Of a stretch of 64,000 bases of DNA, positions 15,001 to 18,000 are shown one piece after another. Numbering within the stretch: the stretch's first letter is position 1; each line of letters starts with the position of its first letter. Position numbers: made by a program. Source of the stretch: an uncultured delta proteobacterium (GTDB lineage: Bacteria > Desulfobacterota > Desulfobaccia > Desulfobaccales > 0-14-0-80-60-11); the NCBI GenBank assembly GCA_963812015.1, contig CAWETI010000002.1, positions 864,001-928,000 on the forward strand, in the 5' to 3' direction.

Positions 15001-18000
15001 GGCCATACAACCCAAGAAAGGAGCGAGAAAAGCCACGGTGCCGATGGTGAGGCTGGGGATCAACTGCTTGCGGAAGGTCTCGGGTTCTATTTCGGCGCCG
15101 GCCAGAAAAGTCAGGACTACCGAAGCAAAGCCCGCCAGGAAGTTGATCCAGGCATTGGGTTGGAAAATGGCGGAACCGAAGTGGGCTCCCAGGTTGCCGG
15201 CGACAAACCCCAGGAAAATTTCCACCAGGGCCACGGAGATGCCGATGCGAATGGAGATGAGACTGGCCAGGAATGCCAGGCCGATCCAGGCCGTCGCGGT
15301 GTACCAAACGTGCTCCACTTTATGCTCCTGAAACCGGTGCGGGGTGTAAATAAAAAAGGCCCTGACCCACACCCGGTGAGATCAGGAGCCATCAGTGTCA
15401 TCACGGTTCGGGCAGACTCTCCTCCACCCCGGCGGACTCCATCGCCTAATTTTAGCTAACCTTAACTCCAGTTGTCCTGATTGGTCAAGAAAAATATGCA
15501 TAAAGCAGAATCTCTGGAGAGGTCTCTTTTAAAGTTGACATAGGGGCGGTTTGCGAGCGATAATTTATAATTAAAGAAGGCGATGAAGTCCGCCTTAATT
15601 GCCCACGGGTGCCAGGTGGGCTGATGACTTCTGTCCATTTTAGGGGCAGAGGTTTTTTTTTGCCCGATTTAAGGAAGATGGATGGGAACCTATCGACAAT
15701 TTCAAGAAGCTTTGGAACATCAGCTCGTTCAGTTGAGCAAGTTTCCGGAACTGAAGGGGCCGCACCTGGCCAGGCTTATCGACAAGCTGCGGGAAAATCG
15801 CTTTAATTTGGTGATCCTGGGAGCTTTCAAACGGGGCAAGAGCACCCTGATCAATGCCCTCCTGGGTGAGCCGATCTTGCCGACGGCCATCGTCCCCCTG
15901 ACCTCGGTCGTCACCGTCTTGGGATACGGCGATCAACTAAATATCGAGGTCCGTTTTCAAAACGGGTCCCGGAGAAAAATCTCCCAGCCGGAATTGGTGG
16001 AATATATCACCGAGAAGGGCAATCCCCGGAATCAGAAGGGGGTGAGGGAAGTAGAGATCACCTTTCCCTCGGATTATCTAAAGGACGGGGTGAGAATCAT
16101 CGACACCCCCGGGGTAGGGTCGGTTTATAGCCACAACACCGAAGTGGCCTATAATTATCTTCCCCAGGTGGATGCGGCCGTTTTTGTGGTCTCGGTTGAC
16201 CCGCCGCTCTCCGCCGCGGAACAGGATTTCTTGAAAGACATCCGGGAATATGTCCACAAACTCTTTTTTGTGCTGAATAAAATTGATTATGTGGGCGCGG
16301 CCGAGCGCCAAGAGGCCCTGGAATTTACGGCCCAGACATTGCAAGCCAATTTGGGGACGGAAACATTGGCGATTTTCCCCCTTTCGGCCAAATTAGCGAT
16401 GGACGGCAAATCCAATGGCCATCCCGAACTCCTGGCAGCCAGTTTGCTCCCCGAGTTTGAAAATCATTTGCGCCAGTTTCTCTATAAAGAAAAAGGGCGG
16501 GTGTTGTTGATTTCTTGCCTCAGCGGCGCGCTTAAGACCATCACCGATTCGACCCTGGCCCTCAAGGTGGAACGTCAGGCCGGCGCCATGCCCCTGAAGG
16601 AATTGGAAGACAAGATCACCCGGTTCGACCAGGAATTGCAAGGCCTGGAAAAAGAACGGGAACTGTCTTTGCTGCTGCTGGATGGTCGGATCAAGGGCGT
16701 GATCACCGAAGTGGAGGCGGACCTCGACGCCTTTAAGAAAGAGACCATCATCAAATTACGCCGGAAGATGGAGGAGGCTTTCCAGCAAAAAAGCCAGGCT
16801 GCCGGAGATTTGCGCCAGGAAACGGAGGAAATCCTGTTTGCGGCGTTGCGGGACGTATTCACCACCTGGCGGCGACAGGAAATCGAGAAACTCTCCCTAA
16901 AATTGGCCGATACCCACCAGGATTTCGCCACCCGCATCAATGCCATCCTGGAGCGTTTGACCCAATTGACCGCCCGTATCTTTGACTTTTCTCTCAGGGG
17001 CTTTGCCGCGGAGGAAGCCTTCCCCGATCTGCGCCAATTCTGGTTCAAATTTAAGGATGAACCGGTGGGGCTGGAAATTCTTCAAATGACCGTGACCTCC
17101 CTCCTGCCCCGGGCCTTGACCAGAGGCTTGCTGCTCAAAAAGCTGTTGGAAAATGTCGGCGAATTGGTGGATAAGCATTGCGGGCGGCTGCGCTACGATT
17201 TCCACCAGCGGCTCCAGGAAATTGCCCGAGATTTCCGCCAGACCTGGCTCGCCAAGATCGACGACACTACGCAAAGCATCCGGCAGGCCCTGGACCGGGC
17301 TTGGTCCCAAAAACAGACCAGCGCCCAGACTACCGCCGAGAGAATGGGTCAGCTTGATCAAAGCTTGACCGAAATCCTCCAGGCCGAATCGCAATTATTG
17401 GCCTTGAAGGAGCAGATTGAGGAAACCTTACAGTGAGGGCGCAGCTTTTGGTATAGACTAAAATTGTTTGTGAAAAAAGTAAGTTAGGCTTGACATCGGC
17501 AAGAATAACCTTACCTTTCGAGTAAATCACCTATTGATGCTAAGGAGGCGGCCATGAAAGATTTTGATGAGGTTACCCGGGAAAAGGGCCTGCCCCGTGT
17601 GGGGCAGGAGGTGCGCAGCAAAAAATACGGCACGGTGTGGCGAGTCATGGAGAAAAAAGAGGTGTGGACCAATATCGAACCAGACCCCCAGACCGGCGAG
17701 ACCCGCATGCTCCCGGCTATTTATCTTTCATATTGGCAGGTCAAGGAAGGGGTGCGACCCGGCGTGGGGAAGATGATGGGCTTTGAATATACTCTCTATG
17801 ACAATACCTTTAGCGTCAATTGGGATATCGTGGAATGAATCGCCCTTTTCAACAATAGTCTCAGGTATTATAGTAGGGGCCAAGGCTTATGCTGGCGGCC
17901 CCTTTTTTATGGAAAAATCAGCTGGATGAGCATCACCGCCATACCCTGCGGGAGGAAGACCACCTATGACTGGAATTATTCTGGTGCGCCACGGCCAAAC

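What a model noticed while it worked through the whole genome (the two positions that open the first line are those of the whole stretch)
15376..17838. Fluoride riboswitch in front of a dynamin-like GTPase operon
Two divergent fluoride riboswitches sit back to back; one precedes a Na+/H+ antiporter-Usp operon, the other lies 42 nt before a 584-aa dynamin-family GTPase (g00775), in a genome that has no CrcB/Fluc fluoride channel. I read this GTPase family as a conserved, so far unrecognised member of the fluoride regulon: a fluoride-induced membrane-remodelling/repair protein, or a spare GTPase that stands in when metal-fluoride complexes poison GTPases. It would add a new effector class to fluoride resistance and give bacterial dynamins a defined inducing signal.
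Evidence so far: Rfam RF01734 48.3 bits (C2:879570-879640,+) and 38.8 bits (879376-879455,-), gathering 34 (rna.tsv; call 32). Pfam Dynamin_N 6e-28. Close orthologues (74-87% id): aptamer over gathering score on the gene's strand ~45 nt upstream in 17 of 18 loci. Of 90 other genomes sampled evenly over the phylum 12 have a match (E<=1e-25; 31-70% id, 11 families), and in 10 of these 12 loci a fluoride aptamer (36.5-63.4 bits) lies just upstream on the same strand. Wider scan with a 9-sequence profile: of the 80 best loci in genome_contigs the 67 that are 35-56% identical were scanned with Rfam: 38 of 67 carry a fluoride aptamer (36.7-61.4 bits) within 500 nt upstream on the gene's strand, and no other Rfam f [...]
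(Added by a program. Inside this text positions count along the whole contig: contig position 864,001 is position 1 of the stretch shown here. "Call 12" and the like, gene names such as g00115 and contig names such as C1 are that model's own, and its searches are not shown. The text may have been shortened before it was handed on; [...] marks where a part breaks off. The agent that wrote the report below was given it as the finding of a first reader that could run no searches.)

Follow-up and report, generated by a model that had tools for sequence, protein, structure and literature searches.

The report
Fluoride riboswitch controlling a bacterial dynamin
A fluoride-sensing RNA switch sits directly in front of a dynamin-like membrane GTPase gene here and in most of its relatives, which suggests that looking after the cell membrane is a widespread but undescribed part of the bacterial response to fluoride.

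Summary
Two divergent fluoride aptamers (RF01734, 48.3 and 38.8 bits) are the only ones in this genome. The + strand one has a promoter-like site, a terminator that overlaps the aptamer's pseudoknot strand, a ribosome-binding site and then a 584-aa dynamin-like GTPase.

The pairing is conserved. It is present in 17 of 18 close loci. In a 400-genome sample of the phylum, 65 of 73 homologue matches in 70 genomes have a same-strand aptamer upstream, across two deep subfamilies, and in 29 genomes it is the only riboswitch. It is also present in 44 of 66 assessable distant metagenome loci. Neighbours are classic fluoride-regulon genes.

The protein has intact GTPase motifs and a BDLP/IniA/mitofusin fold with an aromatic tip loop.

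The genome has no CrcB. Carriers have CrcB less often than non-carriers: 14 of 70 against 152 of 330.

Fluoride control is well supported. The function (membrane repair or remodelling) is inferred.

Four full-text searches found no paper linking the two. The 2012 riboswitch paper could not be read.

This scan has noted the same pairing before on other DNA: 67 notes in at least 53 genomes.

The parts
15535..15564 (+). Promoter-like site TTGACA-18-GATAAT (11 of 12 matches), 5 nt before the aptamer
   Evidence: This is a consensus match only: the region holds 4 such sites and shuffles give 4.0.
15570..15640 (+). Fluoride riboswitch aptamer (RF01734), full length, 48.3 bits
   Evidence: P1 and pseudoknot covariation across 46 aptamers.
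15626..15661 (+). Expression platform: an intrinsic terminator with an 11-bp stem (15626-15654) and a run of 9 T (15653-15661). Its 5' arm, GACUUCU, is the 3' strand of the aptamer pseudoknot.
   Evidence: The stem and U-run are kept in 16 of 16 close leaders.
15671..15677 (+). Ribosome-binding site AAGGAAG, 4 nt before the ATG
   Evidence: AGGAG-like sites stand at the same place in the 16 aligned leaders.
15682..17436 (+). 584-aa dynamin-like GTPase (subfamily A). It has a G domain (about residues 40-250), two helical bundles and a low-confidence aromatic tip loop (residues 442-467, containing FWFKF).
17554..17838 (+). 94-aa protein of unknown family with its own AAGGAGG site, probably co-transcribed with the GTPase
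   Evidence: It is conserved about 115 nt downstream in 15 of 19 close loci, with 29 invariant residues. It has no Pfam, NCBIfam or PADLOC match. Its look-alikes are Thermodesulfobacteriota hypotheticals.
17875..17909 (+). Terminator-like hairpin (7-bp GC-rich stem) followed by U6: the likely end of the transcription unit
   Evidence: The fold's z-score is not significant (0.23), so this rests on the hairpin-plus-U-run pattern alone.
15376..15455 (-). Second, divergent fluoride aptamer (38.8 bits). Its 3' strand GGCUCCUGA can pair with the ribosome-binding region of the antiporter gene.
14113..15372 (-). Na+/H+ exchanger family (CPA2-like) gene under the second riboswitch. The true start is probably the GTG at 15319.
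13652..14071 (-). Universal stress protein gene downstream of the antiporter
17966..18601 (+). Histidine-phosphatase (phosphoglycerate-mutase superfamily) gene. It is a conserved neighbour, but it lies behind the hairpin, so it may be a separate unit.
   Evidence: It is present downstream in most close loci, at variable distance.

Best explanation
This is a fluoride-inducible transcription unit. 

Shown by sequence:
- A sigma-70-like promoter drives a leader that holds a complete fluoride aptamer.
- The 3' strand of the aptamer's pseudoknot is also the 5' arm of an intrinsic terminator.

Inferred from the known mechanism of this riboswitch class:
- Without fluoride the terminator forms and transcription stops at the U-run.
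- With fluoride the Mg-F-bound pseudoknot holds that strand, the terminator cannot form, and RNA polymerase reads into the 584-aa dynamin-like GTPase and the 94-aa gene behind it.

Shown by sequence and model: the GTPase is a catalytically intact member of the BDLP/IniA/mitofusin branch of the dynamin superfamily, with a hydrophobic-aromatic loop at the tip of its helical trunk.

Inferred function: the protein binds the cytoplasmic membrane through that loop, assembles by GTP-dependent G-domain dimerisation, and seals, fuses or pinches off damaged membrane. Fluoride stress would cause such damage by acidifying the cytoplasm and by blocking enolase and pyrophosphatases that feed envelope synthesis.

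It acts beside the Na+/H+ antiporter and Usp operon, which is switched on by the divergent second riboswitch. Together these form the whole riboswitch-controlled fluoride response of a genome that has no CrcB channel.

My odds: fluoride control of this gene family about 0.95; membrane remodelling or repair as its job about 0.5.
For: Regulation in the window:
- The aptamer scores 48.3 bits.
- The terminator is kept in 16 of 16 close leaders.
- P1 and the pseudoknot pair in 414 of 414 cells, with 6 of 9 pairs compensatory.

Conservation of the pairing:
- 17 of 18 close loci have the aptamer.
- Among phylum loci scanned with Rfam, 19 of 20, 7 of 14 and 18 of 20 have it.
- Genome-wide, 65 of 73 matches in 62 of 70 genomes have a same-strand aptamer within 6 kb upstream, 56 of them within 371 nt of the match start.
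- 64 of the 114 riboswitches in those genomes lead to this gene, and in 29 genomes it is the only one.
- 44 of 66 assessable distant metagenome loci have it.
- On a 108-row tree the aptamer-less rows cluster: 12 changes against 23.5 in shuffles. Both deep subfamilies carry aptamers.
- 67 of 70 carrier genomes have a fluoride riboswitch, against 23 of 80 sampled non-carriers.

Gene context: same-strand neighbours are Na_H_Exchanger, Usp, enolase, CrcB, DUF190, pyrophosphatases and MutS-like genes.

Protein:
- G1-G5 motifs are intact in 53 of the 54 phylum homologues (L045 is truncated) and in the window's own protein.
- The model has pLDDT 84.9.
- Foldseek gives IniA 5.3e-24 and BDLP 6e-22.
- VIA-align gives mitofusin/Fzo1 Z 30, IniA Z 25.3 over 514 residues, and BDLP Z 21.9 over 522 residues.
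- Tip loops are aromatic or hydrophobic in both subfamilies: FWFKF, and LLWFLIPMFIF.

Exporter: there is no CrcB in the genome, and both CLC genes are long CBS-bearing ClcB-like forms, one of them split.
Against: - There is no expression data under fluoride and no biochemistry. Membrane binding, GTP hydrolysis and any phenotype are untested.
- The tip loop is modelled at pLDDT below 50, and no transmembrane segment is present.
- 8 of 73 phylum matches and 22 of 66 metagenome loci show no aptamer in the DNA examined. Whole clades have lost it.
- None of the 3 sampled genomes of the same genus has the gene, so it is dispensable.
- I did not test the link from fluoride to membrane damage, and I read nothing that shows it.
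- The promoter match is no more than chance gives in this region.
- The lower CrcB frequency in carriers is not corrected for relatedness.
Confidence: 0.55

Rival explanations
1. Helper of fluoride-regulon membrane proteins. The GTPase does not repair damage. Instead it organises, inserts or clusters the membrane transporters that are induced with it (Na+/H+ antiporter, H+-pyrophosphatase, CrcB, MFS), for example by shaping membrane domains.
For: Transporter genes stand next to it on the same strand in many loci:
- Na_H_Exchanger in 4 phylum and 10 metagenome loci.
- MFS_1 in 9 metagenome loci.
- CrcB between the aptamer and the GTPase in L071 and L080.
- H_PPase directly downstream in L055, L056, L057, L060 and L111.

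The aptamer-less clades keep the H+-PPase neighbour.
Against: No one partner is constant. In 56 of 65 linked cases the GTPase is the first gene after the aptamer, and in the window no transporter is in its unit. I recall no dynamin-like protein with such a role, and I did not search for one.
Confidence: 0.12
2. Spare or decoy GTPase. Metal-fluoride complexes (GDP-MgF3 or GDP-AlF4) poison GTPases. The induced protein would replace a poisoned one or soak up the complexes.
For: The genome has a second, riboswitch-less dynamin-like protein of 740 aa that could be the one backed up. Dynamin-family G domains are crystallised with GDP.AlF4 (entry titles).
Against: The two proteins share only short stretches of 26-35% identity. 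The induced protein lacks the RNA- or ribosome-binding domains of the essential GTPases, so it cannot stand in for them. I saw no feature that would make it fluoride-resistant, since its catalytic motifs are canonical. A one-to-one sink cannot buffer millimolar fluoride (inference).
Confidence: 0.08
3. Vesicle shedding. The GTPase pinches off membrane vesicles, as proposed for LeoA, to discard damaged membrane or fluoride-loaded material.
For: PADLOC LeoA and LeoBC models match at 2.2e-25 and 1.9e-18. LeoA is among the fold matches (rank 36).
Against: The NCBIfam LeoA/HP0731 subfamily model scores 21.7 bits against a cut-off of 325. No LeoB/C-like partner is adjacent in the window. IniA, BDLP and mitofusins are much closer in fold.
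Confidence: 0.08
4. Anti-phage 'Dynamins' defence gene whose link to the riboswitch is incidental.
For: Matches to the PADLOC LeoA and LeoBC models.
Against: The link recurs in 65 of 73 phylum matches and in two deep subfamilies. The neighbours are fluoride-regulon genes, not defence genes. The paired second dynamin that the PADLOC system comprises (its LeoA and LeoBC models) is absent here.
Confidence: 0.02

Closest known systems
IniA/IniC of the mycobacterial iniBAC operon (stress-inducible dynamin-like proteins; structures 6J72/6J73)
   Same: It is the best full-length structural match: Foldseek 5.3e-24, and Z 25.3 over 514 residues. The profile search gives E 2.7e-35. Both are bacterial dynamin-like proteins switched on by a chemical stress rather than made constitutively. 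The induction of iniBAC by isoniazid is recalled, and also stands in the PDB molecule name.
   Different: Identity is only 19-20%. Control here is by an RNA switch for fluoride, not the protein-based regulation I recall for iniBAC. There is no iniB or iniC partner. The inducer is an inorganic anion.
BDLP of Nostoc punctiforme (2J68/2J69) and the mitofusin/Fzo1 branch
   Same: BDLP is the best sequence-profile match (1.9e-46). The architecture is the same: a G domain plus two helical bundles with a membrane-binding tip.
   Different: The protein is shorter (584 against 695 aa). The tip loop is not alignable by sequence, since the profile match ends near residue 455. No inducing signal is known to me for BDLP (recalled).
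Classical fluoride-riboswitch units (crcB, eriC-F/CLC-F, Na+/H+ antiporter, enolase, pyrophosphatase, MutS-like, Usp)
   Same: The aptamer class is the same, and so is the terminator-type ON switch described for crcB RNAs (Weinberg 2010, PMC2864571, passages read). The same genes are its neighbours.
   Different: The controlled gene is a dynamin-like GTPase. That class is not named among riboswitch-associated genes in the 2024 review PMC11139923, which has 0 occurrences of 'dynamin', 'GTP' or 'GTPase'. It is also absent from Table 2 of PMC11777429.
DynA of Bacillus subtilis (NCBIfam NF052648)
   Same: Both are dynamin-like GTPases. DynA has been implicated in membrane protection (recalled). 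The domain-level match is 3.8e-20.
   Different: The match scores 71.4 bits against a cut-off of 1600, so this is not an equivalog. DynA is a 1187-position two-headed fusion, whereas this protein is single-headed.

Membership tests
Fluoride riboswitch (crcB motif, RF01734) | Covariance-model score at or above Rfam's gathering score over the full model | tested here: met
   48.3 and 38.8 bits against a gathering score of 34, covering model positions 1-64 of 64
Fluoride riboswitch (crcB motif, RF01734) | P1 helix and pseudoknot supported by covariation | tested here: met
   414 of 414 cells pair, and 6 of 9 pairs have changes on both sides. Slid controls pair in 41-57% of cells. The P3 helix was not counted because MAFFT aligned it poorly.
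Fluoride riboswitch (crcB motif, RF01734) | Position in a 5' leader on the gene's strand, with an expression platform that competes with the aptamer | tested here: met
   The terminator's 5' arm overlaps the pseudoknot strand, and this is kept in 16 of 16 close leaders.
Fluoride riboswitch (crcB motif, RF01734) | Binds fluoride and changes gene expression | not testable with these tools
   Needs in-line probing, transcription assays or reporters.
Dynamin superfamily, BDLP/mitofusin/IniA branch | Dynamin_N domain above Pfam's cut-off | tested here: met
   97.7 bits against a cut-off of 27, E 9.6e-28
Dynamin superfamily, BDLP/mitofusin/IniA branch | Intact G1-G4 nucleotide-binding motifs | tested here: met
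   GAFKRGKST, the switch-1 T, DTPG and NKID are all present. G47, K50, G52, K53, D141, T142, P143, G144, K200 and D202 are invariant in 43 sequences.
Dynamin superfamily, BDLP/mitofusin/IniA branch | G domain followed by two helical bundles (neck and trunk) | tested here: met
   The model has pLDDT 84.9. IniA, BDLP, Cj-DLP, SynDLP and mitofusins are the top matches.
Dynamin superfamily, BDLP/mitofusin/IniA branch | Membrane-binding paddle or loop at the trunk tip | tested here: inconclusive
   Aromatic or hydrophobic tip loops occur in both subfamilies. The loop is modelled at pLDDT below 50 and is not alignable to BDLP by sequence.
Dynamin superfamily, BDLP/mitofusin/IniA branch | GTP-dependent assembly and membrane remodelling | not testable with these tools
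Biochemistry is needed.
DynA equivalog (NF052648) and LeoA/HP0731 subfamily (NF041922) | Score above NCBIfam's curated cut-off | tested here: not met
   71.4 bits against 1600, and 21.7 bits against 325
PADLOC 'Dynamins' defence system (LeoA + LeoBC) | Two adjacent dynamin-like genes matching the LeoA and LeoBC models | tested here: not met
   One gene matches both models weakly. The neighbouring ORFs are a 94-aa protein and a histidine phosphatase. The genome's other dynamin-like gene lies on another contig.

The most novel reading that the evidence does not exclude
In anaerobes without a CrcB channel, a dynamin-like GTPase plus a Na+/H+ antiporter form an exporter-independent fluoride-resistance system, and fluoride controls the GTPase twice. 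At the RNA level it acts through the riboswitch. At the protein level GDP-metal-fluoride mimics the transition state and locks the G-domain dimer, so the protein becomes a fluoride-triggered membrane clamp or seal.
Probability: 0.08. Interest if true: 0.9.

Novelty: new variant of a known kind. Interest (0 to 1): 0.72.

Why it matters
Bacterial dynamin-like proteins are widespread, but to my knowledge (recalled, not searched) few have a defined inducing signal or physiological role. Here a whole family has a chemically defined, RNA-encoded inducer. The search found 2,328 representatives at E<=1e-30, a count that may include other dynamin-like proteins.

The current picture of fluoride resistance covers export, pH and phosphate homeostasis, and extra copies of inhibited enzymes (PMC11139923). 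If the function is confirmed, a membrane-remodelling arm would be added to it.

The share is not marginal. In this phylum sample I estimate that about 3 in 10 fluoride riboswitches lead to this gene. That is 64 riboswitches, out of the 114 in carriers plus about 100 extrapolated from 25 found in 80 non-carriers.

It also gives a direct experimental handle: add fluoride, then watch a bacterial dynamin act.

Tried and rejected
- **Paralogue controls.** I took the weaker phylum matches (E about 1e-36 to 1e-44) as negative controls. 18 of 20 also carry the aptamer and form a second subfamily. That left no paralogue control. The controls I do have are the 7 Rfam-negative loci, which also gave no hit with my own model, and the slid-partner control.
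- **Genome-contig scan.** Run with the single protein, it returned only close relatives, so I could not sample other named phyla. The metagenome loci carry no taxonomy.
- **RNA evidence.** Four wetland metatranscriptome runs hold short contigs, 92-99% alike, over much of the gene. They come from contigs of related strains in RNA libraries and cannot show level, strand or induction. One contig (X18, record 26) covers 15578-15663 and then runs into adapter, 2 nt past the U-run. That is only a weak hint of a terminated leader.
- **Papers not held.** Baker 2012 was tried twice and McIlwain 2021 once.
- **Weinberg 2010 supplements.** They gave no occurrence of 'dynamin', 'GTPase' or 'GTP-binding'. 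They also gave none of 'crcB motif', so that search may not have reached the gene tables.
- **Unbiased riboswitch census.** Only 80 of the 325 remaining non-carriers were searched.
- **94-aa protein.** Pfam, NCBIfam, PADLOC and the protein atlas gave no function.
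Full report
**1. The observation**

An Rfam scan of window 10000-22000 finds two fluoride aptamers at the stated places: 15570-15640 (+, 48.3 bits) and 15376-15455 (-, 38.8 bits), against a gathering score of 34. 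They are the only two in the whole 3.96-Mb, 99.86%-complete genome.

The + strand copy is preceded by TTGACA-18-GATAAT at 15535-15564. It is followed by an 11-bp hairpin (15626-15654) and nine T, then AAGGAAG, then the ATG at 15682 of a 584-aa ORF. Pfam calls the product Dynamin_N (9.6e-28).

The - strand copy precedes a Na_H_Exchanger gene and a Usp gene. The genome has no CRCB match. Its two CLC loci are long, CBS-bearing ClcB-like forms, and one is split in two frames. That fluoride-type CLCs lack CBS domains is recalled, not tested.

**2. The aptamers are real**

I aligned 46 aptamers from the window and related loci and counted pairs for P1 plus the pseudoknot. All 414 of 414 cells form standard pairs, and 6 of 9 pairs change on both sides. 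Sliding the partners by 1-3 columns drops pairing to 41-57%.

**3. The expression platform**

The terminator's 5' arm (GACUUCUGUCC) contains the 3' strand of the pseudoknot (ACUUC pairs with GAAGU in the P1 loop). Aptamer folding and terminator folding therefore exclude each other.

In 16 of 16 leaders of close orthologues the stem, the U-run and an AGGAG-like site are kept. This is the transcriptional ON arrangement already described for crcB RNAs (PMC2864571, passages read).

The minus-strand switch looks different. Its 3' strand GGCUCCUGA can pair with the ribosome-binding region UCAGGAGC of the antiporter gene.

**4. Conservation among close relatives**

Nineteen loci at 74-87% identity come from Desulfobaccales-like MAGs, going by the record titles. 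L014 lacks upstream DNA. Of the 18 usable loci, 17 have the aptamer about 45 nt upstream on the gene's strand, and L012 has only a partial match.

A 94-aa ORF follows the GTPase after about 115 nt in 15 of 19 loci. It is 62-81% identical and has 29 invariant residues. A hairpin plus U6 follows it in the window. A histidine-phosphatase gene comes next in most loci, at variable distance.

**5. Conservation across the phylum**

In 400 genomes drawn evenly from the phylum, 70 have a match at E<=1e-20, giving 73 matches.

- None of the 3 sampled genomes of the same genus has a match.
- Rfam scans of 34 full-length distant loci gave an aptamer on the gene's strand in 26.
- The 20 weaker matches that I meant as paralogue controls gave 18.
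- These weaker matches form a second subfamily with G1 GQFKAGKSS and G4 TKxD. The window's subfamily has GxFKRGKS/T and NKxD.

A genome-wide RF01734 search of the 70 carriers, compared with the gene positions, gave these counts:

- 65 of 73 matches, in 62 of 70 genomes, have a same-strand aptamer within 6 kb upstream.
- 56 of them lie within 371 nt of the match start.
- 64 of the 114 above-threshold riboswitches in these genomes lead to this gene.
- In 29 genomes it is the only riboswitch.
- One of the 8 unlinked matches (G172) lies at a contig end.

Because carriers were chosen by the gene, I also searched 80 of the 325 remaining non-carriers. 23 of them have a riboswitch, 25 riboswitches in all. 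Among five non-carriers of the window's own family, 1 has one, in front of a Na_H_Exchanger gene. Extrapolated, roughly 3 in 10 fluoride riboswitches of this phylum sample precede this GTPase.

The other 50 riboswitches of the carriers lead mostly to Na_H_Exchanger (18 loci). After that come MutS-like (4), prenyltransferase-like (3), NADH-dehydrogenase-like (2), FTHFS (2), CrcB (1) and DUF6062 (1).

**6. Conservation outside the sample**

A profile scan of metagenome contigs returned 80 loci. I built my own covariance model from the 46 aptamers. It gave no hit on the 7 loci that Rfam had called negative, and it found the known positives.

Of 66 assessable distant loci (32-55% identity), 39 have a + strand match of 30 bits or more upstream within the 2.5-kb flank. 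Rfam confirmed 5 of 10 weaker matches and none of 10 loci without a hit. That makes 44 of 66, and all 9 of 9 assessable close loci.

Several 'negative' loci have Na_H_Exchanger-Usp or MutS-like genes just upstream on the same strand (L150, L144, L166). The aptamer may lie beyond the flank there, so the count is a lower bound.

On a FastTree of 108 proteins the aptamer-less rows cluster, with 12 changes against a mean of 23.5 in shuffles. The largest such clade has 10 rows. Three of its members, and both members of a second aptamer-less pair, have an H+-pyrophosphatase gene directly downstream.

**7. Gene context**

Same-strand neighbours in phylum and metagenome loci are the classical fluoride-regulon classes: Na_H_Exchanger, Usp, enolase, CrcB, DUF190, soluble and membrane pyrophosphatases, MutS-like and MFS. 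DUF6062, HIT, HEAT and a second dynamin also recur.

**8. The protein**

- All G motifs are intact.
- A profile of 43 family members finds BDLP (1.9e-46), IniA (2.7e-35) and the Campylobacter DLP pair (3.6e-34) among solved structures.
- The AlphaFold model (pLDDT 84.9, pTM 0.68) has a G domain and long helices, with a disordered tip at residues 442-467.
- Foldseek ranks IniA and BDLP first.
- VIA-align gives Z 30 to the mitofusin/Fzo1 minimal GTPase domains, Z 25.3 to IniA over 514 residues, and Z 21.9 to BDLP over 522 residues.
- The tip is aromatic in subfamily A (FWFKF, RFYYL) and strongly hydrophobic in subfamily B (LLWFLIPMFIF).
- It fails the cut-offs of the DynA and LeoA NCBIfam models.
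- It matches the PADLOC LeoA and LeoBC models only weakly, and has no adjacent partner.
- The family is large: 2,328 representatives at 50% identity match at E<=1e-30.
- The genome also has a distant, riboswitch-less 740-aa dynamin-like protein.

**9. CrcB**

In the same 400 genomes, 166 have CRCB. That is 14 of 70 carriers against 152 of 330 non-carriers (intersected by hand). Related genomes are not independent, so this is a tendency, not a test.

**10. Interpretation**

Fluoride control of this gene family is as well supported as comparative genomics allows. Its job is inferred from the fold and the tip loop: a membrane-binding, GTP-driven remodelling or repair protein.

The chain from fluoride to membrane damage is my inference. 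It runs through acidification by HF entry, inhibition of enolase and so shortage of PEP for cell-wall synthesis, and inhibition of pyrophosphatases. The review passages I read support only the enzyme inhibition and the acidification (PMC11139923).

**11. Novelty**

- Full-text searches for 'fluoride riboswitch' with 'dynamin', and for 'fluoride' with 'riboswitch' and 'dynamin', found 0 papers.
- 'Fluoride riboswitch' with 'GTPase' found 8 papers, none of whose titles or abstract openings concerned this link.
- 'Bacterial dynamin-like' with 'fluoride' found 12 papers, none of whose titles or abstract openings concerned fluoride control of a bacterial dynamin.
- A looser search, requiring any 2 of 'crcB motif', 'fluoride' and 'GTP-binding protein', showed nothing on the link among its 15 listed papers.
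- The 2024 review of fluoride resistance does not contain 'dynamin', 'GTP' or 'GTPase'.
- Baker et al. 2012 and its gene lists could not be read, so the family may be hidden there.
- This scan has noted the same pairing on other DNA 67 times, in at least 53 genomes. Those notes are unchecked leads, not independent evidence.

Noticed in passing
window 15310-15460 (-): The minus-strand fluoride riboswitch seems to use a different platform from the + strand one. Its 3' strand GGCUCCUGA can pair with the ribosome-binding region UCAGGAGC of the Na+/H+ antiporter gene. The listed GTG start at 15372 lies inside the leader, so a GTG at 15319 behind AGGAG is more likely the real start.
   Followed up: partly
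L055, L056, L057, L060 (phylum loci); L111 (metagenome locus): In the clades that lack the aptamer, a membrane H+-pyrophosphatase gene (PF03030) stands directly after the GTPase gene. Fluoride inhibition of pyrophosphatases is listed in PMC11777429 Table 2.
   Followed up: partly
L041, L042, L073, L075, L087: A HIT-domain (nucleotide hydrolase or transferase) gene follows the GTPase on the same strand in five fluoride-switched loci. I recall that some HIT enzymes cleave nucleoside phosphorofluoridates, but I did not check this.
   Followed up: no
L068, L070, L138, L143, L148, L149, L167, L189: DUF6062 genes are neighbours of the GTPase. In L189 one stands directly behind a fluoride aptamer.
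   Followed up: no
L199, L200, L211; L043, L153, L163: Proteins of about 270 aa with a prenyltransferase/squalene-cyclase-like toroid domain stand directly behind fluoride aptamers or beside the GTPase. This is another membrane-related candidate for the regulon.
   Followed up: no
G000 contig 3, L169:115-2337 (-): The genome has a second dynamin-like protein (740 aa, Dynamin_N 6.7e-17) with DCQG in place of DTPG. No fluoride riboswitch lies near it.
   Followed up: partly
G000 contig 3, L004:762-2565 (-): One of the genome's two CLC genes is split into two adjacent frames of 355 and 232 aa. This may be a frameshift, a pseudogene or an assembly error.
   Followed up: no
window 15578-15663: A 145-nt metatranscriptome contig (run X18, record 26, depth 21.5) covers the aptamer and terminator and then runs into sequencing adapter 2 nt after the U-run. 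This is a weak hint of a terminated leader RNA from a related strain.
   Followed up: no
L073 (G370), locus 1272-1336 and 3673-3734: Two fluoride aptamers sit in one gene row. One precedes the GTPase and a HIT gene; the second precedes a Na_H_Exchanger gene.
   Followed up: no
L045 (G015) and L058 (G312): The GTPase gene is interrupted in two genomes: by an in-frame TAA in G015, and by a split into two frames in G312. Both still lie behind an aptamer.
   Followed up: no
window 12777-12937 (-): Two tRNA genes (65 and 52.1 bits) lie about 250 nt beyond the low-coordinate end of the 148-aa ORF at 13172-13618, downstream of the antiporter-Usp unit.
   Followed up: no
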